From the IMG/VR virus record IMGVR_UViG_3300031957_002393, positions 20,373 to 84,372 of that record: a stretch of DNA of 64,000 bases. One strand, written 5' to 3'. Numbering within the stretch: position 1 is the first letter of the stretch; every line of letters starts with the position of its first letter. The DNA is from a virus. Taxonomy: Duplodnaviria; Heunggongvirae; Uroviricota; Caudoviricetes. The notes beneath the pieces were generated by a model, which saw nothing but the letters and a program-made list of their open reading frames with translations, was not told the origin of the DNA and ran no database searches. Positions 5,241-49,042 of this stretch are shown piece after piece. The position numbers and the translations under genes are program-made.

Positions 5241-6983
5241 ATGACCGTCACAGCCCCCAACGTAGAGATCAACTTGCCGCTGGGCATGAAGTTGTTTCGG
5301 CCCCCGGGAGCCCACGAACGCTATGACGACATGATGGCACAGTTCTTCGCTACGCCTTATGCGTTTTGTTATGTGTGCCCCATCGTCACAATCAACGATG
5401 TCGTTGAGATGATGCAACCCACGGATAATCAGAAACTGGTGGCAACGAAGGCGCAAGACAGTAGGTTTATTTGGGTTAACAAGTATCGTCAGGCGTTCAT
5501 CACTACACTCATGGACATGATGCTTTTGCGTGATTGTATGTACGGGGAAGGCATTCAGGGCGCGTTCGTTGCACAGAAAGAAGACACCCACAAAGAGCAC
5601 ATGCGGCGCATTTCCTTCACGTACAACAAGATGAAAGAGGATCCCATCCTATCAAAGTTCATCGTGCCGTTGAAGAAGAATACAAGCGCAACGATTTCAG
5701 GTATTGAGTTCATTCACGGTGGTGGTATTTGGCCTATCACTGCGGGCTCTGACAGCCCGGGTGTCGGTCGCTCCTTCTCTCGTGTTGTGGAGACAGAGAG
5801 TTGCGAGATGCCCGCCGAAGACTTCCATAGGCTGAACACAAAGTTCTACCCTACGATCACCAAGCGACCCTTCGGTCGTATTTGGCGAGAGAGCACTCCG
5901 GGTAAAGCAGAAACACCCCAACACCGTGCTTGGCTAAAGGCACTCAAGGGTAACAGTCGATTTGAGCCTGTGTTTTTGAAGTGGTGGGAAGATAGCGTCA
6001 ACACGGTACCCTTGAGTGACAAGTTCTCGCCAATCACAGAAGAAGAGAAGGAATACGCTCGACGCCTTAAAGGCATCACAAAGGGGCACGTTTACTTTCG
6101 CCGCTTTGAGATTAGCGACTTCTGTGACGGTGACGAGAATCTGTTTGAGGTCAAGTACCCGAGCGGCCCTCTCAAGGGTTGGACACGCAGCACAGGCACA
6201 GTGTTCGATCAACACCGTCTACAGAAAATGTACGACACGTCAATCAGCGATGACACGGGACGAAACATCAATCATTACTGCCTCGTTGCCAAGAAGCCCA
6301 ACCCTTATCATCGTTACGTTCTGGTAATCGACCCGACGGACTTCGGGGCCACGGGCGATAATGCGGCTATGATCATGTTTGACCGCTGTGACTGGGAAGA
6401 GGTAGCTAAGTGGGAAGGACGGGAAGACCCTACGAAAAGCTACCCCCGTGCAAAGGAAATGTGCAAATACTACAACAACGCCACAATGGTCATCGAGAGC
6501 AACTGCTCTGCCTTCATTGCCTTAGCTACAAGGGATGACGAACCTGACGCTCCACCAATCTACTACGAAAAGAAAGACAAGCCCGGTTGGCGAGCTACAT
6601 CAAAGTCTATTCAGGAAGGTGAGGCCGCGGTTAATGAGCTACTCAAGGAAGAGGTGTTCACATTGAACTTCGCCTCTACCATTGAGCAGATGCTACACTT
6701 CGATGGTAACAAGCGTGACCGACGAGTACGCAATACCCGTGGCGAAAAAAGTCACTTCGATTCGGCGCGCTGCGCTGTCATCGCCGCTCACTGGCTGTAC
6801 AATGGGGGCTACTGCGCCCCCATCTCGGAGGAAGAGCTGCGGAAGCTACGCGAGGCACAAGCCGAGAGAGACGAGGCTATCGCCCGTGAGCGATTCATCG
6901 CTGCGCTCAAGCGCAACGGACGTTACGAGGATCCCAACGCCGACAGCGTGTGGGCACCTGGGGCAGCTCGGAGGATGATGTGA
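5241..6983 (+). CDS. terL: terminase large subunit (putative)
   Basis: 580 aa. C-terminal region has nuclease-like motifs YVLVIDPTDFGATGDNAAMIMFD and MVIESNCSAF (terminase RNaseH-like D...D...E-x-N pattern); directly precedes portal-sized gene. No canonical Walker A seen, start codon uncertain. Confidence 0.5.
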   Translation: MTVTAPNVEINLPLGMKLFRPPGAHERYDDMMAQFFATPYAFCYVCPIVTINDVVEMMQPTDNQKLVATKAQDSRFIWVNKYRQAFITTLMDMMLLRDCMYGEGIQGAFVAQKEDTHKEHMRRISFTYNKMKEDPILSKFIVPLKKNTSATISGIEFIHGGGIWPITAGSDSPGVGRSFSRVVETESCEMPAEDFHRLNTKFYPTITKRPFGRIWRESTPGKAETPQHRAWLKALKGNSRFEPVFLKWWEDSVNTVPLSDKFSPITEEEKEYARRLKGITKGHVYFRRFEISDFCDGDENLFEVKYPSGPLKGWTRSTGTVFDQHRLQKMYDTSISDDTGRNINHYCLVAKKPNPYHRYVLVIDPTDFGATGDNAAMIMFDRCDWEEVAKWEGREDPTKSYPRAKEMCKYYNNATMVIESNCSAFIALATRDDEPDAPPIYYEKKDKPGWRATSKSIQEGEAAVNELLKEEVFTLNFASTIEQMLHFDGNKRDRRVRNTRGEKSHFDSARCAVIAAHWLYNGGYCAPISEEELRKLREAQAERDEAIARERFIAALKRNGRYEDPNADSVWAPGAARRMM

Positions 6984-8671
6984 AGCCAAAGCAACTTAGA
7001 GCCCTCGTTCGGCGACACAAAGAACGATACAGGCAGGAAGAGAAGGATCTATTCGAGCTGAACACTCGATTCTACAATGGTGCCTTCTACGAGAACTCGC
7101 AACAGCGTTTCAGTCTGATGCGCCATGGCTCCACGGGTACGCCTCTTGCTGCTGTCAACCTAATCTTCGCTCTTACGGAATCCGTTTGCTCGTCTATGCT
7201 CGGGCGAGACATCAGTGTTGTAGCGAAGGGAGCAGACGAAAAATCTGAGCAGTTTGAGTTCATCGTTACGCGAATGCTTGCGAATGAGTTCGCACGCAAC
7301 AAGTTCCGTATGACAGCACAGGTGTCGCTAACTGACGCTGTGTTGAATCGACGTGGTTGCTTCAAGGTCATCCCGGATAAAGCCAACCAAGGAGCAAGGA
7401 TTCTTGAGGTGCATCCACGGTACCTCGGTTACTCTCCAGATGCACGGGTGTTAGACGATTCGTCGTACTTCATCCAATGCGTACCTCTGCCGTGGCGTCA
7501 GTTCAAAGCCAACATTGACAGCGGAGCCTACCTGTCACCGAAGAAGGGAGCCAAGCCCGAAGGCTTACCTCAATGGGCAGCAACAGATGAAGAGCAGCGA
7601 CATCGTGATATCTTCGGTTACGCTACCATGTGGGAAATTTACGACACATGGGAAGGCAAAGTTTATCACTACCATGAGTGTAGTGAGCAGGTGTTGTACG
7701 AAGGTCAACCGAGTAACCACCCTTTTGGTATGTTCAGCCTCAACACGAACCAGCGGAACCTCGATGGTTTGAGTGAAGTGGAGTTGATCCTTGAGCAACA
7801 GGTTGCGTTGAATGACTTCCGTTCGACTGTGAATCAACTTGCCTACACGCTCATCCCTCGGATGATGTACGATGCAGGCATGATTGACGAAGACCAGTTG
7901 ACGAGGGTTTTACACGGCTCCGTTGGCGGCTTTGTTCCCGTGAAGCGAAAAGGCAATGCTGTACAGAAGCAGGCGGATTTAAGCCAAATCTTCCGTGAGG
8001 TACCACGGCCGCAGATTCATGGTGACATGATCAACGCCATGAACACAGCGATGTCGGATGCACAGTTTGTAAGCTCACTCATGCCACAGAACCGTGGCCA
8101 AGCGGTTAACATTCGTACAGCTAAGGAAGCCAGTTTGATTGAGGCTCAGGAGAGAAATCGTATCAGCGGGCGCATGGCTAACATGGAAATCAACGGCATC
8201 GTCCCTGTGGCAGAACGGGTACTGTACTACATTAAGAAGTACAGGCAGGGACCGCACACAGTCAAGATGGGTAAGCAGGACTGGCAGCAACTCAGCGGAA
8301 ATGACCTGTTGTCGTTCAAGGGCTCGTATCAGTTAACGGCTCAGTCGCCAGTCAAGACAAACCCAGCCATCATCGCAGAAAACTTAGGTCAACTGCAAAA
8401 CATGCTCGTGCAAAACCCAGACATCAACATGCGTGAGGTCATCGCCCTTATTTTCGAGGGCATGGGGATTCCGAAGGAGCGAGTGTTGCTTTCTCCCGAG
8501 GAAACGGCTAAGATCCAAGAGCAGATGGCCGCACAACAAGCCGCACAACAAGGCGGCGTGAACCCCGACGCCATGGTGGCTGCGAGCGAGCAGGCCGCAC
8601 AAGAAGATCCCTCCGGGGGTCTCGCGACCGCAGAGCAAACGGCTGCTGCAGCCCAGGAGATGATGGGATGA
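6950..8671 (+). CDS. portal protein (putative)
   Basis: 573-aa ORF immediately after terminase (34-nt out-of-frame overlap, GTG start; alternative GTG 6977), followed by scaffold-like genes; assignment by size/synteny only. Confidence 0.45.
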   Translation: MGTWGSSEDDVKPKQLRALVRRHKERYRQEEKDLFELNTRFYNGAFYENSQQRFSLMRHGSTGTPLAAVNLIFALTESVCSSMLGRDISVVAKGADEKSEQFEFIVTRMLANEFARNKFRMTAQVSLTDAVLNRRGCFKVIPDKANQGARILEVHPRYLGYSPDARVLDDSSYFIQCVPLPWRQFKANIDSGAYLSPKKGAKPEGLPQWAATDEEQRHRDIFGYATMWEIYDTWEGKVYHYHECSEQVLYEGQPSNHPFGMFSLNTNQRNLDGLSEVELILEQQVALNDFRSTVNQLAYTLIPRMMYDAGMIDEDQLTRVLHGSVGGFVPVKRKGNAVQKQADLSQIFREVPRPQIHGDMINAMNTAMSDAQFVSSLMPQNRGQAVNIRTAKEASLIEAQERNRISGRMANMEINGIVPVAERVLYYIKKYRQGPHTVKMGKQDWQQLSGNDLLSFKGSYQLTAQSPVKTNPAIIAENLGQLQNMLVQNPDINMREVIALIFEGMGIPKERVLLSPEETAKIQEQMAAQQAAQQGGVNPDAMVAASEQAAQEDPSGGLATAEQTAAAAQEMMG

Positions 8672-38354: not shown

Positions 38355-38425
38355 TGGCGCATCGTCTAACGGCAAGGCCCTGGTTTTTGGCACCAGTGAT
38401 GAGGGTTCGAGTCCTTCTGCGCCAG
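38355..38425 (+). tRNA. tRNA-Gln(UUG)
   Basis: Hand-folded: acceptor TGGCGCA/TGCGCCA (U1-A72 as in bacterial tRNA-Gln), AC stem CTGGT/ACCAG, loop TTTTGGC, T-arm GAGGG-TTCGAGT-CCTTC. Confidence 0.65.
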
Positions 38426-38473
38426 CTCTTGTGGGTTCAGTCAACGCTTGCTACGGGAAGGCAGGTACCTTAT

Positions 38474-38542
38474 GGGGTGATAGCTTAATGGAGAGCGGCA
38501 GGCGGCCACCTGCAGGTGAGGGTTCAAGTCCCTCAAACCCCT
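38474..38542 (+). tRNA. degenerate tRNA-like element (possible tRNA pseudogene; anticodon unclear)
   Basis: Good T-arm GAGGG-TTCAAGT-CCCTC and D-loop TAGCTTAATGG but acceptor has 2 mismatches and anticodon loop is 6 nt (GCAGG-CGGCCA-CCTGC). Confidence 0.3.
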
Positions 38543-38546
38543 TCGT

Positions 38547-38620
38547 GATTCTGTAGCTCAGTTGGTTAGAGCGGCTGATTGTTAATCAGCGGGTCGGAGG
38601 TTCGAGTCCTCCCAGAATCG
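38547..38620 (+). tRNA. tRNA-Asn(GUU)
   Basis: Acceptor GATTCTG/CAGAATC, D-loop TAGCTCAGTTGGTTAGAGC, AC stem GCTGA/TCAGC loop TTGTTAA, T-arm GGAGG-TTCGAGT-CCTCC. Confidence 0.8.
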
Positions 38621-38625
38621 CTTTT

Positions 38626-38698
38626 GGTTGTCAAGCTCAGTTGGCGGAGCGCTGGTCTGAAGCACCAGAGGTGCGGGGTTCGATTCCCCGGGCAACCA
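38626..38698 (+). tRNA. tRNA-Phe(GAA)
   Basis: Acceptor GGTTGTC/GGCAACC (one G-U), AC stem CTGGT/ACCAG loop CTGAAGC, T-arm CGGGG-TTCGATT-CCCCG. Confidence 0.75.
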
Positions 38699-38722
38699 TT
38701 TTCTTTTAGGGAGCAATGAAAC

Positions 38723-39097
38723 ATGTACAAGCAGGTACTCATCTATCGACGTGACCTCAAGATGCGGAAGGGTAAGATTGCGGCGCAGTGTGCTCATGCC
38801 GCAGTGAGGTTGTGTGTCCAGTGTTTCACGTCGTCATTCACTGGCATCGATCGGTTGAGGGAATGGTACCATAGCGGCCAGAAGAAGATCGTGCTCAGCG
38901 TCGACACCCTTGAGGAGCTGTACGAGTTGCAGGCCCAGGCGGCTGTTGCAGGGCTACGCAACGCCATCGTGACTGATACAGGTGCGACGGAGTTTCACGG
39001 GGTAGCTACGGTCACTGTACTCGGCATCGGTCCCTGTACAGATGAAGAAGTCGATCCGATCACTCGCAATGGTGATGTTGCAACAAAGCTCGCATGA
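38723..39097 (+). CDS. pth2: peptidyl-tRNA hydrolase, PTH2 family
   Basis: KQVLIYRRDLKMRKGKIAAQCAHAAV matches PTH2 signature (human PTRH2 ...[21 protein letters not shown]...); SD GGGAG; sits between tRNA genes. Confidence 0.75.
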   Translation: MYKQVLIYRRDLKMRKGKIAAQCAHAAVRLCVQCFTSSFTGIDRLREWYHSGQKKIVLSVDTLEELYELQAQAAVAGLRNAIVTDTGATEFHGVATVTVLGIGPCTDEEVDPITRNGDVATKLA

Positions 39098-39117
39098 GGT
39101 TATGATTACATTAACAC

Positions 39118-39190
39118 GGGCCCCTAACTCAATCGGTAGAATACCGTCTTTTTAAGTCGGGGGTTGTGGGTTCGAGTCCCACGGGGCCCA
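39118..39190 (+). tRNA. tRNA-Lys(UUU)
   Basis: Acceptor GGGCCCC/GGGGCCC, AC stem CCGTC/GTCGG (one mismatch) loop TTTTTAA, T-arm GTGGG-TTCGAGT-CCCAC. Confidence 0.6.
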
Positions 39191-41987: not shown

Positions 41988-42185
41988 ATGTGGAAGTTCG
42001 CTGAAAACAACCCTGTGCGTTTTGTTGTTATCATTACCATTATCGCTATCGTGGGTGTCGCTATTGCCTCTGTGATTCCGCAGACCGTTGCTGTGATCAC
42101 GGTTACTCCGTATGAGTCCGGTGGAGGCAAGCTACACATGACGGTCGGTGGAGATGAAGGTGTCGACGCCGACGACAACCGATAG
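41988..42185 (+). CDS. small membrane protein, paralog A (65 aa)
   Basis: N-terminal TM helix; C-terminal ESGGGKLHMTVGGDEGVDADDNR shared with next gene. Confidence 0.45.
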   Translation: MWKFAENNPVRFVVIITIIAIVGVAIASVIPQTVAVITVTPYESGGGKLHMTVGGDEGVDADDNR

Positions 42186-42245: not shown

Positions 42246-42455
42246 ATGGAAAAGTTTATGCGCAATAGCCCTTTTGCTTTCGTTCTACTCGTGTTCATCG
42301 TTGCGTCTGTGGTTACCAGTGTTTTCGACATGGTAACTATGACGGCCATGGCCGCTATGGGCGTCAACTTTGAGCAGGGCGGAGGCAAGCTTCATGTCTC
42401 CCTGGGGGGTGACACCGATGCATCTACCGAAAGCGACGCCGACGACAACCGATAG
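42246..42455 (+). CDS. small membrane protein, paralog B (69 aa)
   Basis: Same architecture; C-terminal EQGGGKLHVSLGGD...DADDNR; DNA repeat GACGCCGACGACAACCGATAGGATC at both 3' ends. Confidence 0.45.
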   Translation: MEKFMRNSPFAFVLLVFIVASVVTSVFDMVTMTAMAAMGVNFEQGGGKLHVSLGGDTDASTESDADDNR

Positions 42456-42459
42456 GATC

Positions 42460-42570
42460 ATGTCTCTCATTGTAGTAGTATTTTTCTTTGCGATCCTGTT
42501 CGCTCTGGGTTACGCTGCTACAACGAAGACTGAACTGAGGAAGGTACAACAAGGAGCGCTGCTTGCCTAA
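42460..42570 (+). CDS. tiny single-TM peptide (36 aa)
   Basis: MSLIVVVFFFAILFALGYAA...; weak SD; low confidence. Confidence 0.25.
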   Translation: MSLIVVVFFFAILFALGYAATTKTELRKVQQGALLA

Positions 42571-42854: not shown

Positions 42855-42930
42855 GCCGGGTTAGCTCAGTTGGTAGGGCTGTGGTTTTGTAAACCACCGG
42901 TCGTGGGTTCGAGTCCCTCACCCGGCACCA
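42855..42930 (+). tRNA. tRNA-Thr(UGU), CCA encoded
   Basis: Acceptor GCCGGGT/ACCCGGC, D-loop TAGCTCAGTTGGTAGGGC, AC stem GTGGT/ACCAC loop TTTGTAA, T-arm GTGGG-TTCGAGT-CCCTC (one mismatch). Confidence 0.6.
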
Positions 42931-43469: not shown

Positions 43470-44117
43470 ATGCTGATTCGCGTAGACTCCGATGTTGATT
43501 GGATTGTCAAGACTCACAACGTGAGCATGGAGCATTTGACTGGCGGCTCGGAGCTGCAGGCCATGAAAGACTTTCTGCGCCTGGAGGATGAGGGATGGAC
43601 ATTCAACGCAATGAGCCCAAGGATGGCGGCTTACGGTCATATTGAGGTTGCGGAGTTGCCAGTACAATCTATAGTCGACGGTGCTTACCTGCCTGTGATT
43701 GATCGTAAGCATTTACCAGTTCAACGCTATGCTATAACATGGGTATCGAGTGATCGATTGCAGATTGGCAACCGTTACCATCTGATGAGTGAGATCATGC
43801 GGCGCCTTGAGGCATCGGCAGGTGAGCATTCGATGGTGGAGGCTGCCCAGGAGAAGCACCGTCCTCACATGGGGCACATTTGCCGTCAGCTCGTTCACTA
43901 CCCTTGGCGATCGTACACTCGAAAGAAGTTGCGACGCATGCGGTACCATGATATCAAACGAGCGTGGGATCGTCTCTGCGGTAAAGCGTGGCGAGTAAGA
44001 GTAACAAAATTCGCCTACATCGCAGTTGACGTAGAAACCAAAACCTGTTACTACAGCGGATACCTACCACTCGTGATCAAAGTGATCAAAGGAGAAGTGC
44101 CATGTATGCATTCTTGA
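43470..44117 (+). CDS. hypothetical protein (215 aa)
   Basis: ORF after AAAGGTACAACATCATG. Confidence 0.4.
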   Translation: MLIRVDSDVDWIVKTHNVSMEHLTGGSELQAMKDFLRLEDEGWTFNAMSPRMAAYGHIEVAELPVQSIVDGAYLPVIDRKHLPVQRYAITWVSSDRLQIGNRYHLMSEIMRRLEASAGEHSMVEAAQEKHRPHMGHICRQLVHYPWRSYTRKKLRRMRYHDIKRAWDRLCGKAWRVRVTKFAYIAVDVETKTCYYSGYLPLVIKVIKGEVPCMHS

Positions 44118-44407
44118 ACATCATCGAACCTGCTTACCGTCGAGTCGAAGCTGGTGTTGCTACGCTTGATGCCTTCTACGCTAAGCAAGATGCCGTGGGC
44201 AAGGGAGCGATTGTGATCTGCATGGCGGCCACTGCTGTTCTTTCTACCCTTGCCTTTGTGTGGCTTGCGGGCATTCTGCTGAATAAGAACGGCCTGTTCG
44301 CTGCGGCTATCATTGTTTTTGCATGGTCTTTCTGGACGCTTGTGACCAACAGTGTTACTGTCATCATGTCGGCTATGGACAAGGCCGCAAACATCAACAA
44401 GGACTGA
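44102..44407 (+). CDS. small membrane protein (101 aa, 2-3 TM), possible SPFH-operon partner
   Basis: Hydrophobic helices AIVICMAATAVLSTLAFVWLAGILL and AAAIIVFAWSFWTLV; immediately upstream of SPFH gene. Confidence 0.4.
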   Translation: MYAFLNIIEPAYRRVEAGVATLDAFYAKQDAVGKGAIVICMAATAVLSTLAFVWLAGILLNKNGLFAAAIIVFAWSFWTLVTNSVTVIMSAMDKAANINKD

Positions 44408-44410
44408 ACC

Positions 44411-45223
44411 ATGCGCTACCTACTTCTACTCTCTTCTTTCGCTATGGGTTGCACCGTCATTGAGCCGGGTACCGTGGGAGTCGCTACGGACCTGGGTACT
44501 CTCCGAGAGGCTCCGCTCACTCCTGGCATTAACTTCTACCCGCCCATCTATCGCTCCATCAATGTCTACAGTACGCGGTATGAAGCCTTTGAGGTTGATG
44601 AGGCATCGGCAACCAAGGACAACCAGAAGGTCAACGTCAAGGTGACTATTAGCTGGGCACGTCAGGCTGACGCTGTGCCTATGCAGGAACGAGAGTATCC
44701 GAACCTTGAACAGATGGTGCTCAAGCCTCGACTCGTCGAGGCTATCAAGGCCGCAACGTCCATGTACAGCGCTGACGAGCTGACAGCTCAGCGCGAGATG
44801 GTTAAGGAGAGCATCACGCAGACCATCAGCACTGCCCTTGCGCCTGTCGGTATTGTCGTGGATGATGTCAGTGTGGGCAACTTCGACTTCTCTGAAGCCT
44901 ACGATCGCGCCATCGAAGAGAAGATCCGTGCTCGTGAGGAGTCGAAGCGGGCGGAGGAAGAGCTTCGCAAGGCTGAGGCTGAGGCAAAGAAGAAGATCGT
45001 CAAGGCTACTGCAGACAAGCAGGCGGCTATCCTTGTGGCAGAAGGTCAGGCGGAAGCGCTTCGCATTCAGGGTCAGGCCATCGAAGCCAATCCTGCAGTG
45101 GTTGAGCTTGAGCGCATCAACAAGTGGAACGGTGCGCCTGCTCGTGTTATCATGCTCGGAGAGGGTGGATCTGGTATGGCAGGAACCATGCTGCAGGTGT
45201 CTGCTGGTGCCAGCGCTGAGTAA
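44411..45223 (+). CDS. SPFH/band-7 (prohibitin/HflC-like) lipoprotein
   Basis: Lipobox LLLLSSFAMGC; SPFH core ...KDNQKVNVKVTISW...VKESITQTISTALAPVGIVVDDVSVGNFDFSEAYDRAIEEKIRAREESKRAEEE...VVELERINKWNG. Confidence 0.6.
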   Translation: MRYLLLLSSFAMGCTVIEPGTVGVATDLGTLREAPLTPGINFYPPIYRSINVYSTRYEAFEVDEASATKDNQKVNVKVTISWARQADAVPMQEREYPNLEQMVLKPRLVEAIKAATSMYSADELTAQREMVKESITQTISTALAPVGIVVDDVSVGNFDFSEAYDRAIEEKIRAREESKRAEEELRKAEAEAKKKIVKATADKQAAILVAEGQAEALRIQGQAIEANPAVVELERINKWNGAPARVIMLGEGGSGMAGTMLQVSAGASAE

Positions 45224-45254
45224 CGGGCATTCAACTACAAAGGAGCTACAACCA

Positions 45255-45821
45255 ATGTCTTTTTTGAAGAAACCAGAGGGTGAACGCCCTCGAATCAAAA
45301 GTGTTCTCCACTTCACCGATCTACAAGCTGAACCTCAACCCCCCAAGCTACCTTCTCGTGGTCGTCTACGTGGCGCTGTGACGGACATGGATGATCTTAG
45401 CAGGCAACTTGATAGCTGGGTAGGTTTAGGTCACATTGACAATGAGCGTATGTGCTCCTTCATCGACGCTCTTTCCAGCCTGTGCGGCTACTACGATGAT
45501 GTAGTGGAGAACATGCACCTGACATACGAACATGAACCCGCAGAGCTTGTAGTCTACAACATCGAAGATGAATCAGTTACGGTAGAGCAACAACGTAAAC
45601 TGGAGCAGTACAACAAGGATCGTAAAGCGTGGGATGCTGCTGTCGTTAAAGCCCGTGAACACAATGAATCCATTGCTGATCGGCTTGAGTTGTGGTATCA
45701 GTGGGATGAGCAGGGTAAGATGCTTCGTAATGGCCTGAGTGTTGCACGACACATGGGCTTCGATAACGAGGTTACGGCTAAGATTCAGTCCCGTCTAATC
45801 GAATACGGCCACGAGGAGTAG
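45255..45821 (+). CDS. hypothetical protein (188 aa)
   Basis: ATG 45255 with SD AAGGAG 9 nt upstream. Confidence 0.4.
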   Translation: MSFLKKPEGERPRIKSVLHFTDLQAEPQPPKLPSRGRLRGAVTDMDDLSRQLDSWVGLGHIDNERMCSFIDALSSLCGYYDDVVENMHLTYEHEPAELVVYNIEDESVTVEQQRKLEQYNKDRKAWDAAVVKAREHNESIADRLELWYQWDEQGKMLRNGLSVARHMGFDNEVTAKIQSRLIEYGHEE

Positions 45822-45824
45822 TCA

Positions 45825-46091
45825 ATGCCACGAGTAACCATGAAACCGTGTGCAGAGTGCTTCACATATGGCACCGTTGACTGCCCCATCTGTGACGGTC
45901 AAGGTTACTATCGCTGTGAAGAGTGCCTGGGCCATGGCTTTTACTCTAGCTCCTACGGTACCACGTCTTGTCATGCCTGCGAAGGTGAGGGAATGGTTGA
46001 CTGTGCAAGTTGTCATGCTGCCGGCGAGACAAAGTGTCGCTCCTGCAACGGTGTTGGAGCTGTAGAAGTTGACGATGAAGAGGAAGAGTGA
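45825..46091 (+). CDS. DnaJ-type zinc-finger protein (CxxCxGxG repeats)
   Basis: CPICDGQG, CEECLGHG, CHACEGEG, CRSCNGVG (+CASCHAAG) = DnaJ central Cys-rich domain pattern; acidic tail. Confidence 0.55.
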   Translation: MPRVTMKPCAECFTYGTVDCPICDGQGYYRCEECLGHGFYSSSYGTTSCHACEGEGMVDCASCHAAGETKCRSCNGVGAVEVDDEEEE

Positions 46092-47495: not shown

Positions 47496-48110
47496 ATGTC
47501 CGACATTCAAAACCTTACCATCTCTTCCGAGGTTGATCTCTCTACGATCGCTACGGCCATGGAGCACCGCATTGAGCAACAGCTTGAAGCGGAGTACACC
47601 CGGATTAAGGAAGTGGCAGGTCAACACACGCGTGAATTCGAGAATGCAGAGGAAGCTCTGTGTGACACACTGCAAGAGCATATGCCTGACTACACGCGCG
47701 CACTTATTGCAATGGGTTATGATGTTGTAGTTGTTCCCACTCGACCCTGTGAACGTCACCCGCGCTATAGCTTCTACATTGAAGTCACGGCTAACCATTA
47801 CCTTCAAGAAAGTGATCGACGGACACAGGGCTTTGTTCGTACCAACGGGGGCATCTCTACTTGGTGGGATGTCAGTAGTGATCATCTTGAGGAATGGGGT
47901 CTATTGAGCGAATTTGTGTCGCTTAGGCGCCTGTTTGATCGCCATAAGCAGTCGGAGTCTGCGTTGACCAAGGCGTACGAGCGTTACAAGAACAAGCGTG
48001 AGATCGCACGCAAGGCAAAGAATGAGTTCCTTGCGAACCTTGTGGAACTTCATATGCCGAACGTGGCTCAGATCATGGGCACGTCGAAGGCTAAGGCCCT
48101 GGAGGGATAA
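47496..48110 (+). CDS. hypothetical protein (204 aa)
   Basis: ATG 47496 with SD GGAGAA 6 nt upstream. Confidence 0.4.
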   Translation: MSDIQNLTISSEVDLSTIATAMEHRIEQQLEAEYTRIKEVAGQHTREFENAEEALCDTLQEHMPDYTRALIAMGYDVVVVPTRPCERHPRYSFYIEVTANHYLQESDRRTQGFVRTNGGISTWWDVSSDHLEEWGLLSEFVSLRRLFDRHKQSESALTKAYERYKNKREIARKAKNEFLANLVELHMPNVAQIMGTSKAKALEG

Positions 48111-49042
48111 TGTTCGATCCAACCCTGTATGGTTACAACTCTGAACATTTCAATGTCACTGTGCGAGCGGATAGTATCGGACCCAATGGCGTTCGTCTGA
48201 CTACCCTGGAGTGTACATACCCAGACATCATCCACACTCATGTGCTAACGCACCGTGTCTTCTCCCGTAACACCTCCAGCAGTCGAGCAATCCCTACCCG
48301 AAAGCTACTCGGTCGACTCAAGAACCATGTGTTGCCGCTGGTATGGCGCCGTAATCAACGAGGTATGAGCGGAGGAGAAGCGTTTGACCACATGCAAGCA
48401 GGTCGACTAGACTTTATTGTAGATCAATTGGTTGAGGTAACTCGCTTGTCGGTGGGTGAATTGCGCGAACACAAGGTAGCGAAGGAGACAATCAACCGCT
48501 ACATTGAGCACTTCCTCACCCGCACGGTCGTCATCACTTCTACTGAGTGGCAGAACTTCATCAACCTGCGTACAGCGTCGAATGCGCAACCAGAGGTGCA
48601 ACTCTTGGCGACCTTGGTTCGTCAAACCCTTGACACGTCAACCCCTACTACACTGCACCCTCTCCAATGGCACATGCCCTTCATCGACGCTGAGGCAGCG
48701 CAACTGCCCGAGGCTGATCGGCTAAAGGTCTCTGTGGGCCGCTGCGCTCGGGTGAGTTACCTTACCCACGATGGAGAGAGGGATCCGATGAAGGACATTG
48801 CCTTGGCTGATCGACTCCTGGCTGACGGTCACATGTCGCCATTCGAGCATGTAGCTCAGTGTCTACCCCCGGATACATTCGGCATGAGGCTCGATGGTTT
48901 CACTGTTGACGCTTTGCTTGCGTGGAAGGTAGGGTTCACGGAAGCTGAGCTACTCACGTCTAAGCTCTGGTCCGGTAACCTACGTGGTTGGCGCCAGTAC
49001 AGGAAGACTATCCATGGTGAAAGTACCTTCACTCCCTCATGA
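48110..49042 (+). CDS. thyX: flavin-dependent thymidylate synthase ThyX-like
   Basis: LTHRVFSRNTSSSRA fits ThyX signature RHR-x7-S-x-R (HRVFSRNTSSSR vs HRMFSFNQQSQR); FINLRTASNAQPEVQ downstream motif. Confidence 0.55.
   Translation: MFDPTLYGYNSEHFNVTVRADSIGPNGVRLTTLECTYPDIIHTHVLTHRVFSRNTSSSRAIPTRKLLGRLKNHVLPLVWRRNQRGMSGGEAFDHMQAGRLDFIVDQLVEVTRLSVGELREHKVAKETINRYIEHFLTRTVVITSTEWQNFINLRTASNAQPEVQLLATLVRQTLDTSTPTTLHPLQWHMPFIDAEAAQLPEADRLKVSVGRCARVSYLTHDGERDPMKDIALADRLLADGHMSPFEHVAQCLPPDTFGMRLDGFTVDALLAWKVGFTEAELLTSKLWSGNLRGWRQYRKTIHGESTFTPS

What the first reader, a model, noticed from the sequence alone, without database searches (positions are those of the whole stretch)
44102..45223. Phage-encoded SPFH/prohibitin-family lipoprotein with an upstream small multi-TM partner
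ORF 44411-45223 has a lipobox (LSSFAMGC) and a clear band-7/SPFH core followed by a long charged coiled coil (EEKIRAREESKRAEEELRKAEAEAKKK). The preceding 101-aa protein has 2-3 TM helices, reminiscent of SPFH-NfeD/YqiJ-type operon pairs. SPFH scaffolds organise membrane microdomains and regulate membrane proteases such as FtsH/HflKC. In a phage this could serve superinfection exclusion, lysis timing or protection of phage membrane proteins.
Basis: partly seen in the sequence, partly recalled or inferred. Interest (0 to 1): 0.55.

Follow-up and report, generated by a model that had tools for sequence, protein, structure and literature searches.

The report
Phage SPFH lipoprotein with membrane neighbour
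A novel phage carries a diverged copy of a widespread but functionally unstudied phage membrane-scaffold (SPFH/prohibitin-like) lipoprotein gene; the small two-helix membrane protein encoded just before it sits where relatives keep a conserved partner, but it is not recognisably related to that partner.

Summary
ORF 44411-45223 (270 aa) is a bona fide SPFH/Band-7 protein: Pfam PF01145 E=1.5e-28, PHROG 200 'lipoprotein' E=4.9e-50, and a predicted fold matching full-length prohibitin, HflK/C, stomatin and QmcA cage protomers. Its N-terminus fits lipoprotein patterns, and Cys14 aligns with a cysteine kept in at least 90% of the family. ORF 44102-44407 (101 aa) is a two-helix membrane hairpin, 3 nt upstream.

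The upstream protein is not NfeD/YqiJ-like: it has no Pfam match, is predicted all-helical and has no OB domain. It is a true ORFan, with only itself found among 1.84 billion representatives.

Relatives, however, do keep a partner. A small membrane protein lies directly upstream in 34 of 39 non-redundant viral loci and directly downstream in 0 of 39. Across independent lineages the counts are 10 of 16 versus 1 of 15 (p=0.002). Most of these partners belong to an undescribed 2-TM family with a conserved loop motif. The window's protein does not match that family.

The SPFH gene is a new, diverged member (25-31% identity) of a known, widely annotated phage family whose function has not been tested. 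FtsH control, lysis timing and superinfection exclusion all remain speculation.

The parts
44102..44407 (+). 101-aa ORFan membrane protein. It has an N-terminal helical extension of about 33 residues, TM1 at about 35-60, a tight turn at NKNG (residues 60-63), TM2 at about 64-92 and a short tail. It is a candidate partner or client of the SPFH protein on the basis of position and topology only.
   Evidence: ORF. SD-like AGGAG lies 7 nt before the ATG. Hydropathy shows two spans. The single-sequence AF2 model has helix 2-59 and helix 64-100, pLDDT 67.5. No Pfam, PHROG, NCBIfam or PADLOC match. Only itself was found in 5.8 G and 1.84 G protein libraries. It scores 0.2 bits against the partner-family HMM, and 129 of 300 shuffles do as well.
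44405..44413 (+). Gene junction TGA-ACC-ATG. The stop of the 101-aa ORF, one codon, then the SPFH start. Both ORFs are in the same reading frame, and the spacing is compatible with translational coupling.
   Evidence: Sequence. Frames are equal, and TGA is the commonest stop codon in the window (65 of 115), so it is an ordinary stop and not a sign of recoding. Relatives show gaps of 1-3 nt or overlaps at the same junction.
44411..45223 (+). 270-aa SPFH/Band-7 (prohibitin-like) protein, a diverged member of the phage 'lipoprotein' SPFH family (PHROG 200).
   Evidence: PF01145 E=1.5e-28. phrog_200 E=4.9e-50. PDB sequence search: prohibitin-2 E=5.8e-19. AF2 pLDDT 81.3. Foldseek against PDB: prohibitin, HflK/C, stomatin, erlin and QmcA, E from 1e-17 to 1e-10. 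BFVD viral SPFH proteins. 25-31% identity to all relatives. 30% identity, E=2e-22, full length to Pseudomonas phage TL gp12.
44411..44452 (+). Predicted lipoprotein signal peptide and lipobox (MRYLLLLSSFAMG|C); Cys14 is the predicted lipidated residue.
   Evidence: Pattern matches. The Cys14 column is conserved in at least 90% of 62 family members, always immediately before the SPFH domain. Cys14 aligns with the Cys of the canonical lipobox of TL gp12...AITAGC. The hydrophobic stretch is only about 11 residues, too short for a TM span.
44456..44986 (+). SPFH (Band_7) domain, residues 16-192.
   Evidence: Pfam envelope. The model shows beta strands 13-84, helices 86-146 and strand 148-160, at high pLDDT.
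44894..45088 (+). Long charged helix (residues 162-226), equivalent to the coiled-coil wall helix of SPFH cages.
   Evidence: DSSP on the AF2 model. It aligns with the helical wall region of prohibitin and HflK/C protomers.
45017..45133 (+). Most conserved C-terminal segment (residues 203-241), ending in the family motif KW[ND]G. This is the presumed oligomerisation or cap region.
   Evidence: 69% identity over residues 203-241 to the SPFH lipoproteins of about 55 Pseudomonas Bruynoghevirus-type phages. The KW[ND]G motif is present in 110 of 122 family members examined. K238, W239 and G241 are nearly invariant.

Best explanation
ORF 44411-45223 encodes a diverged member of the widespread phage SPFH/prohibitin-like 'lipoprotein' family (PHROG 200).

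Shown: the domain, the fold and the family membership.

Inferred:
- The 13-residue signal peptide is cut at Cys14 and the protein is lipid-anchored on the periplasmic side of the envelope. The inner membrane is most likely, because relatives without the Cys use an N-terminal TM anchor instead.
- Like every structurally solved SPFH protein, it oligomerises through the long helix and the conserved C-terminal KWNG segment into a ring or dome that fences off a patch of membrane.
- The tightly abutting upstream gene (44102-44407) encodes a two-helix inner-membrane hairpin that is made with it and is its likeliest client or adaptor. This is by analogy with the conserved 2-TM protein found at exactly this position in most relatives.
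- The pair belongs to a non-structural, probably early or middle gene block. It most plausibly controls a membrane event during infection, such as keeping a membrane-active, holin-like small protein in check or stabilising membrane integrity. It is not a virion component.

Which membrane event is involved is not known.
For: SPFH identity.

Lipoprotein: the N-terminus fits G+LPPv2 and the PS51257 core pattern. Cys14 is conserved in at least 90% of the family, directly before the SPFH domain. It aligns with the canonical lipobox Cys of phage TL gp12.

Cage-type architecture: the model has the SPFH domain, a 65-residue helix and a short helix, and it matches full-length protomers of prohibitin (8rrh), HflK/C (7vhq, 9cz2), stomatin, erlin and QmcA (8z5g).

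Partner:
- A small TM protein lies directly upstream in 34/39 loci at 90% non-redundancy, 14/18 at 80% and 4/7 at 60%. Directly downstream the counts are 0/39, 0/18 and 0/7.
- Across independent lineages, including cultured phages of Pseudomonas, Vibrio, Yersinia/Serratia, Bradyrhizobium, Rhizobium and Staphylococcus, the counts are 10/16 upstream and 1/15 downstream, Fisher p=0.002.
- Junctions are 1-3 nt or overlapping.
- The partner family has a conserved loop between its two TM helices (F/YPGLTxANTxxN or LMNxxxDxxF). It also includes TL gp10, the L004 62-aa protein, and the L099 and L101 61-aa proteins.
- In kayviruses the same adjacency, holin-like MbpV followed by SPFH MbpS, has been noted in print (PMC7150955).

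The window pair has the same order, a 3-nt gap and a 2-TM hairpin.
Against: The window's 101-aa protein has no detectable homology to the partner family (0.2 bits; 129 of 300 shuffles score as high), and no family member is found anywhere in the 64-kb window (best E=0.15). It has no homologue at all, so there is no conservation evidence that it is even expressed. About 13% of small + strand ORFs in the window are TM-like, and four lie within 38-50 kb, so adjacency in this one genome could be chance. Six of 16 lineages have no upstream TM protein. Cys14 is one residue outside the PROSITE positional rule. Lipidation, localisation, oligomerisation and interaction are all untested. The host is unknown, so the envelope type is assumed. 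No promoter or terminator signal above chance defines an operon.
Confidence: 0.45

Rival explanations
1. The SPFH protein works alone or with host proteins, and the 101-aa ORF is an unrelated neighbour or not a real gene. This region of the phage is rich in small membrane ORFs, and the juxtaposition is coincidental.
For: The 101-aa protein is an ORFan. It does not match the partner HMMs. The local base rate of small TM ORFs is 13% or more. Phages nACB2, AD45-P1, Skarpretter, Toutatis and Fnu1 have SPFH genes with no upstream TM protein.
Against: It has the same position, orientation, tight junction and 2-TM hairpin topology as the partner kept by most relatives. It has a good SD sequence. The upstream-versus-downstream asymmetry across lineages has p=0.002.
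Confidence: 0.3
2. The SPFH protein is an HflK/HflC mimic. It joins or replaces the host HflK/C cage around FtsH on the periplasmic face and alters FtsH proteolysis of phage or host membrane proteins.
For: The only NCBIfam hits are hflC (E=3.4e-10) and hflK (E=1e-6). The predicted periplasm-facing topology is that of HflK/C. The fold matches HflK/C protomers in FtsH complexes (7vhq, 7wi3, 9cz2). HflK/C and FtsH control lambda CII (established knowledge; also raised for Bruynoghevirus SPFH proteins in PMC8540360).
Against: The scores of 39.2 and 28.4 bits are far below the equivalog cutoffs of 134.4 and 159.4. By sequence it is closer to prohibitins (E=5.8e-19) and QmcA (E=1.4e-7) than to HflC (E=7.8e-4). 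It is a single gene rather than an HflK+HflC pair. It has a lipid anchor in place of the N-terminal TM helix of HflK/C. The family occurs in strictly lytic phages and in phages of Gram-positive hosts.
Confidence: 0.12
3. The pair is a lysis or superinfection-exclusion device in the strict sense. Either it is a spanin-like pair (an inner-membrane protein plus a lipoprotein), or it is a holin (the 101-aa protein) with an SPFH regulator that sets lysis timing or blocks DNA entry by other phages.
For: The gene order, membrane protein then lipoprotein, resembles i-spanin/o-spanin. Partner-family proteins have holin-like features: they are small, have two TM helices and carry a very basic C-terminal tail. 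In kayviruses the pair lies beside holA, lysK and tgl. In Vi01-like phages an annotated 'superinfection exclusion protein' sits just upstream of the SPFH gene. In nACB2 the gene lies two genes after rIIB.
Against: The lipoprotein is a 270-aa SPFH fold, not a short o-spanin, and it has no C-terminal TM as a unimolecular spanin would. No endolysin or holin family was detected among the neighbours or the other window ORFs tested. In phage TL the pair lies in the early region at 4.6-6.1 kb of a 45.7-kb genome. The window's 101-aa protein lacks the basic tail. There is no Pfam holin or Imm match.
Confidence: 0.15

Closest known systems
Phage SPFH 'lipoprotein' family (PHROG 200), e.g. Pseudomonas phage TL gp12 and other Bruynoghevirus proteins variously annotated as 'lipoprotein', 'transposase fusion protein' or 'HflK family protein'
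   Same: Full-length alignment (30% identity, E=2e-22). The lipobox Cys is in the same place. Residues 203-241 are 69% identical and include the KW[ND]G motif. The gene lies in a non-structural region, and small membrane proteins are encoded just upstream.
   Different: The window protein is only 25-31% identical to any member. It has a very short signal peptide (Cys at position 14). Its upstream protein is not a member of the 2-TM partner family, to which TL gp10 does belong.
Bacterial SPFH-NfeD operon pairs (QmcA-YbbJ, YqiK-YqiJ; PDB 8z5g)
   Same: A membrane protein gene sits immediately upstream of an SPFH gene. The SPFH protomer fold is very similar (TMq 0.62 to QmcA).
   Different: The upstream protein has no NfeD match and no OB or beta domain. 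The SPFH protein is predicted to face the periplasm as a lipoprotein. QmcA, by contrast, is TM-anchored; that it faces the cytoplasm is established knowledge, not tested here.
HflK/HflC-FtsH complex of E. coli
   Same: An SPFH cage fold on the periplasmic face of the inner membrane, with weak sequence similarity.
   Different: Scores are far below the HflK/HflC equivalog cutoffs. It is a single gene rather than a heteromeric pair. It has a lipid anchor instead of a TM helix. There is no evidence of a link to FtsH.
Eukaryotic prohibitins PHB1/PHB2 (PDB 8rrh, 9o9z)
   Same: They are the closest solved structures both by sequence (E=5.8e-19) and by fold (E=3.6e-17). They share the domain order SPFH, long helix, C-terminal segment.
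   Different: Only 23-26% identity. Prohibitins are TM-anchored heteromers in mitochondria that partner with the m-AAA protease. Nothing comparable is encoded here.
Kayvirus MbpV-MbpS (Staphylococcus phages; PMC7150955)
   Same: A small holin-like membrane protein gene (102 aa) is immediately followed by an SPFH protein gene, with a 0-nt gap in Stab22.
   Different: The host is Gram-positive. The SPFH protein is TM-anchored. The pair sits next to the lysis genes. MbpV has one TM helix and a charged tail. Sequence similarity to the window proteins is low or absent.

Membership tests
SPFH / Band_7 superfamily (PF01145) | Profile match above Pfam's gathering score | tested here: met
   100.5 bits against a cutoff of 23.6, E=1.5e-28, covering profile positions 2-176 of 176.
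SPFH / Band_7 superfamily (PF01145) | SPFH alpha/beta domain followed by a long coiled-coil helix, as in the cage-forming members | tested here: met
   AF2 model with pLDDT 81.3. Foldseek probability 1.00 to prohibitin, HflK/C, stomatin, erlin, QmcA and flotillin protomers.
SPFH / Band_7 superfamily (PF01145) | Assembly into a high-order ring or cage on a membrane | not testable with these tools
   Only a monomer could be modelled. This needs native PAGE, EM or a multimer prediction.
Phage SPFH lipoprotein family (PHROG 200) | Profile match | tested here: met
   phrog_200 E=4.9e-50, 171.7 bits, residues 5-245.
Phage SPFH lipoprotein family (PHROG 200) | Conserved Cys at the end of the N-terminal hydrophobic segment, directly before the SPFH domain | tested here: met
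   The Cys14 column is at least 90% conserved in the 62-sequence alignment A2. N-termini are listed.
Phage SPFH lipoprotein family (PHROG 200) | C-terminal KW[ND]G motif | tested here: met
   KWNG at residues 238-241. The motif is present in 110 of 122 members.
Phage SPFH lipoprotein family (PHROG 200) | Upstream 2-TM partner with the loop motif F/YPGLTxANTxxN or LMNxxxDxxF (a feature defined here) | tested here: not met
   Position and 2-TM topology are met, but the HMM score is 0.2 bits and 129 of 300 shuffles score as high. No member is found elsewhere in the window.
Bacterial lipoprotein (signal peptidase II substrate) | Lipobox with an invariant Cys after a short basic n-region and an uncharged h-region | tested here: inconclusive
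   G+LPPv2 and the PS51257 core pattern both match MRYLLLLSSFAMGC, but Cys is at position 14 and the PROSITE rule asks for 15-35. No dedicated predictor such as SignalP or LipoP was available.
Bacterial lipoprotein (signal peptidase II substrate) | Actual acylation and cleavage | not testable with these tools
   Needs globomycin sensitivity, palmitate labelling or mass spectrometry.
HflK / HflC (TIGR01933 / TIGR01932) | Score above the equivalog cutoff | tested here: not met
   hflC 39.2 bits against 134.4; hflK 28.4 bits against 159.4.
HflK / HflC (TIGR01933 / TIGR01932) | Paired hflK and hflC genes, each with an N-terminal TM anchor | tested here: not met
   There is a single SPFH gene, and no neighbouring gene has a Band_7 domain. 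The N-terminal hydrophobic stretch is only about 11 residues.
NfeD (partner of bacterial SPFH proteins), tested for the 101-aa protein | NfeD C-terminal OB-fold (beta-barrel) domain, or any NfeD Pfam family match | tested here: not met
   No Pfam family at E<=0.1 or at E<=1. The AF2 model is two helices with no strand (low confidence, pLDDT 67.5).
NfeD (partner of bacterial SPFH proteins), tested for the 101-aa protein | Membrane protein gene immediately upstream of, and co-oriented with, the SPFH gene | tested here: met
   3-nt gap on the same strand.
Spanin (i-/o-spanin pair or unimolecular spanin) | A short outer-membrane lipoprotein paired with a TM protein carrying a periplasmic coiled coil, in a lysis cassette. 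Alternatively, a lipoprotein with a C-terminal TM helix | tested here: not met
   The lipoprotein is a 270-aa SPFH fold with no C-terminal TM helix. The upstream protein is a TM hairpin with no periplasmic domain. No endolysin or holin was detected nearby.
Holin, tested for the 101-aa protein | A small protein with at least one TM helix and a charged C-terminus, next to an endolysin, or a match to a holin family | tested here: inconclusive
   It is small and has two TM helices. It has no holin family match, its short tail has no net charge (DKAANINKD), and no endolysin is adjacent.

The most novel reading that the evidence does not exclude
Tailed phages of many lineages carry a minimal, phage-specific SPFH system: a periplasm-facing SPFH cage (lipid- or TM-anchored) plus a co-translated small holin-like membrane protein that it corrals. 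The cage would gate when that membrane-active protein can act, affecting lysis timing, membrane depolarisation, or exclusion of or counter-defence against membrane-targeting abortive-infection systems. On this reading the window pair is a diverged instance whose client has been swapped or has drifted beyond recognition. This would be the first assigned function for viral SPFH proteins, and an SPFH-client pair that does without the NfeD domain.
Probability: 0.25. Interest if true: 0.65.

Novelty: new member of a known kind. Interest (0 to 1): 0.4.

Why it matters
SPFH proteins are encoded by very many phages, and even by giant viruses. Yet every paper found treats them as an unexplained annotation.

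The window adds a very diverged member. More usefully, following it up showed that the core phage family is almost always preceded by a small 2-TM protein with a conserved loop. By the positive-inside rule that loop is predicted to face the periplasm.

This gives a concrete, testable handle on what viral SPFH cages enclose, using cultivable systems: Pseudomonas phage TL gp10-gp12, and kayvirus MbpV-MbpS.

If the pair controls membrane integrity or lysis, it bears on phage-therapy candidates. Several Bruynoghevirus and Kayvirus phages carry it. It also bears on the general question of how SPFH cages select clients.

Tried and rejected
- **Close DNA relative among 50,697 phage records:** none found.
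- **Defence-system identity:** no PADLOC hit for either protein or for the neighbours.
- **NfeD, holin or Imm_superinfect identity** for the 101-aa protein and for partner-family representatives: no Pfam hit at E<=1. Only TL gp10 hits a PHROG of unknown function, phrog_11110.
- **Homologues of the 101-aa protein:** the word-index search and the exhaustive phmmer search found only itself. The one extra hit, P0124, is a 25-residue hydrophobic match and was dismissed.
- **Partner-family membership of the 101-aa protein:** rejected by HMM scoring with shuffled controls. One search is void because hmmsearch failed on incompatible options and a stale table was read. The regexes were wrong and its output was discarded.
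- **A partner-family gene elsewhere in the window:** none.
- **Operon boundaries from promoter and terminator scans:** nothing above the shuffle expectation.
- **Stop-codon readthrough or recoding** to fuse the two in-frame ORFs: rejected as unlikely. TGA is the main stop codon here, and in a fusion the 11-residue hydrophobic stretch after TM2 is too short to span the membrane, so the SPFH domain would stay on the cytoplasmic side.
- **Lysis cassette near the locus:** 30 further ORFs were scanned against PHROGs and no lysis gene was recognised.
- **Gene calling:** the first greedy caller picked the longer antisense ORF 44426-45316 over the real gene. This was corrected by anchoring on the SPFH ORF.
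- **Agrobacterium phage OLIVR1 locus:** left out of the lineage count because the record annotates the opposite strand there.
Full report
**1. What is there**

The window is part of a novel tailed phage. It carries a large terminase (5241-6983), a portal (6950-8671), six tRNAs, an HNH endonuclease, ThyX (48110-49042) and a helicase. It has no close DNA relative among 50,697 phage records, and most of its ORFs match no PHROG. The sequence comes from a 92.5-kb metagenomic contig.

Both ORFs of the finding exist as described on the + strand. The 101-aa ORF (44102-44407) has an AGGAG Shine-Dalgarno sequence. It ends 3 nt before the ATG of the 270-aa ORF (44411-45223), which has an AAGGA upstream. 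The longer antisense ORF 44426-45316 is an artefact; the + strand carries all the homology.

**2. The 270-aa protein**

- Pfam Band_7 (PF01145) matches at E=1.5e-28, end to end.
- PHROG 200, labelled 'lipoprotein', matches at E=4.9e-50.
- The closest solved structures by sequence are the prohibitins (E=5.8e-19), then QmcA, then HflC.
- An AlphaFold2 model built on a 62-sequence alignment has pLDDT 81.3.
- The model matches full-length protomers of every structurally solved SPFH cage: prohibitin, HflK/C, stomatin, erlin, QmcA and flotillin. It also matches many viral SPFH predictions, including giant-virus proteins.
- HflK and HflC equivalog scores are far below cutoff, and no defence-system model matches.
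- The protein is a distant member of its family. Nothing in 5.8 billion clusters other than itself exceeds about 32% identity.

**3. Is it a lipoprotein?**

The N-terminus MRYLLLLSSFAMGC fits the G+LPPv2 pattern and the PROSITE PS51257 core pattern. Cys sits at position 14, one short of the PROSITE positional window. The hydrophobic stretch is too short for a TM helix.

The comparative evidence is stronger. In 62 aligned relatives the Cys14 column is at least 90% conserved and always sits immediately before the first SPFH strand, as '...SC-ERIDAGHEG...'. The window protein aligns from 'GC' onward with Pseudomonas phage TL gp12, which has a canonical lipobox (MKKILGLLAIAALAITAGC). The C-terminal KW[ND]G motif is also shared, and residues 203-241 are 69% identical to about 55 Pseudomonas phage proteins.

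I therefore accept 'lipoprotein' as likely but unproven. More distant relatives replace the lipobox with a TM anchor (nACB2, AD45-P1, Skarpretter). This suggests that the common location is the outer face of the cytoplasmic membrane, which is the topology of HflK/C. That last step is inference.

**4. The 101-aa protein**

It has two hydrophobic spans. A low-confidence single-sequence model shows a helical hairpin with a turn at NKNG and no beta structure. It matches nothing in Pfam, PHROGs, NCBIfam or PADLOC. It has no homologue in either the word-indexed 5.8-billion-cluster search or the exhaustive HMMER search of 1.84 billion representatives. It is not NfeD-like, because the defining OB domain is absent.

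**5. Is there a partner at all?**

This was tested in relatives.

- *Viral loci.* From 253 viral contigs encoding relatives, 80 loci were fetched. With the SPFH ORF anchored, the gene directly upstream is a small TM protein in 34 of 39 loci at 90% non-redundancy, 14 of 18 at 80% and 4 of 7 at 60%. The gene directly downstream never is (0/39, 0/18, 0/7). Junctions are typically 1-3 nt or overlapping.
- *A partner family.* These proteins form two related subfamilies with one shared architecture: a basic N-terminus, TM1, a conserved polar loop (F/YPGLTxANTxxN or LMNxxxDxxF), TM2 and a basic tail. An HMM of subfamily A also recognises TL gp10 (14.4 bits) and the 62-aa protein upstream of a metagenomic relative (9.9 bits), with 0 of 300 shuffles reaching either score. 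It recognises the 61-aa upstream proteins of two further gut and environmental phages (11.5 and 45.3 bits). No library describes this family.
- *Cultured phages.* I fetched ten more independent cultured-phage loci and scored nine. Small TM proteins of unrelated sequence lie one or two genes upstream in six of them: Yersinia and Serratia jumbo phages, Pasto, Stab22, RXM and RHph_X66. Skarpretter, Toutatis and Fnu1 have none upstream. OLIVR1 was not scored because the record annotates the opposite strand.
- *Lineage-level count.* Counting lineages once, an immediate upstream TM neighbour occurs in 10 of 16 and a downstream one in 1 of 15 (Fisher p=0.002).
- *Literature.* It contains one matching remark: in kayviruses the holin-like MbpV directly precedes the SPFH protein MbpS beside the lysis genes. 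Neither protein was tested (PMC7150955).

**6. Where the window stands**

Its 101-aa protein has the right position, orientation, coupling distance and hairpin topology. However, it scores 0.2 bits against the partner HMM, and 129 of 300 shuffles do as well. No partner-family member is encoded anywhere in the 64 kb. About 13% of small + strand ORFs here are TM-like.

The pairing is therefore real for the family and plausible, but not demonstrated, for this genome. The client may have been replaced, may have drifted beyond recognition, or may be a coincidental neighbour.

**7. Mechanism**

- *Shown:* SPFH identity, the cage-type protomer architecture, the conserved Cys, and the conserved upstream membrane partner in relatives.
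- *Inferred:* export and lipid anchoring; assembly of a ring or dome on the periplasmic face of the inner membrane, as all solved SPFH proteins do; and enclosure or regulation of the co-encoded hairpin protein.
- *Partner topology.* The partner family's conserved loop is predicted, by the positive-inside rule, to face the periplasm. That is where the SPFH domain would sit.
- *Biological role.* It is open. The gene lies in a non-structural block between the tRNA/HNH region and ThyX, with no recognisable lysis gene nearby. In TL it is in the early region, in kayviruses it is next to the lysis genes, and in Ackermannviridae it is near rIIB or a 'superinfection exclusion protein'. These contexts all point to control of the membrane during infection, but they do not distinguish lysis timing, exclusion or membrane protection.
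- *The FtsH/HflKC-mimic idea.* It has only weak support.
- *Experimental data.* The only data on a prophage-encoded HflK/C-like protein report it in outer-membrane vesicles of Pasteurella multocida (PMC9872710). That is compatible with an envelope location and says nothing about its role in the phage.

**8. Novelty and verdict**

Phage SPFH 'lipoproteins' are widely annotated: PHROG 200, Bruynoghevirus, Vi01-like phages, Schitoviridae, jumbo phages and giant viruses. The gene is therefore a new, unusually diverged member of a known kind.

The NfeD analogy fails the membership test. The broader idea of an SPFH protein plus a membrane partner holds for the family, and the near-universal 2-TM partner with its loop motif appears not to have been described. 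Function remains untested everywhere.

Interest is moderate. This is not a surprise to a specialist, but it is a useful lead towards the open question of what viral SPFH proteins do.

Noticed in passing
window 41988-42185 and 42246-42455 (+): Two adjacent small paralogous membrane proteins (65 and 69 aa). Each has one TM segment and a shared C-terminal motif, GGGKLH..(S/T).GGD...DADDNR. A third small TM ORF overlaps at about 42394-42570. No family was assigned.
   Followed up: no
window 38355-39190 and 42855-42930 (+): tRNA cluster (Gln, Asn, Phe, Lys, plus Thr further on). ARAGORN reports one odd call at 38474-38542 with a two-base 'gc' anticodon and an undetermined amino acid. It may be a degenerate or unusual tRNA.
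   Followed up: no
window 45825-46091 (+): 88-aa cysteine-rich protein with repeated CxxCxGxG motifs. It gives weak matches to the DnaJ central zinc-finger domain and to GRXCR1/2_C (E about 1e-5 to 1e-6). It lies two genes downstream of the SPFH gene.
   Followed up: partly
window 44426-45316 (-): A 296-aa antisense ORF, longer than the real SPFH gene it overlaps. It is an artefact with no homology, but it misled a longest-ORF gene caller.
   Followed up: yes
window 44102-45223 (+): The 101-aa and 270-aa ORFs are in the same reading frame, separated only by TGA-ACC. TGA is the commonest stop codon in the window (65 of 115), so this is probably coincidence, but readthrough would give a 373-aa fusion.
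   Followed up: partly
L009-L088, L004:1171-1359, L007:1183-1395, L099:4828-5013, L101:4812-4997: An apparently undescribed family of small 2-TM phage proteins with the loop motif F/YPGLTxANTxxN (subfamily A) or LMNxxxDxxF (subfamily B) and a basic tail. It is encoded immediately upstream of SPFH lipoprotein genes in most viral loci. TL gp10 (phrog_11110, unknown function) is a member.
   Followed up: yes
L103:4780-5000 (+): An uncalled small ORF (MRNVNLVTVWIILTML...DLINQPSTIANLVGIAIL...KKN) ends right at the SPFH start in a 174-kb gut contig. It has partner-like features. Gene calls are sparse in this contig, so the gene caller may have had trouble there.
   Followed up: partly
L005 (Acinetobacter phage nACB2), L007 (Pseudomonas phage TL) and similar records: Phage SPFH proteins carry misleading public names: 'protease', 'transposase fusion protein', 'putative transposase' and 'structural protein'. 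In Agrobacterium phage OLIVR1 the record annotates the opposite strand across the SPFH ORF.
   Followed up: partly
window 1-64000: Of 39 ORFs scanned against PHROGs, only nine matched any family: portal, metallophosphoesterase, helicase, ThyX, HNH, the SPFH protein, weak matches for the terminase ORF and a possible HTH protein, and one family of unknown function. The phage is very distant from described phages. Its large terminase is only about 22-25% identical to KVP40-type terminases.
   Followed up: partly
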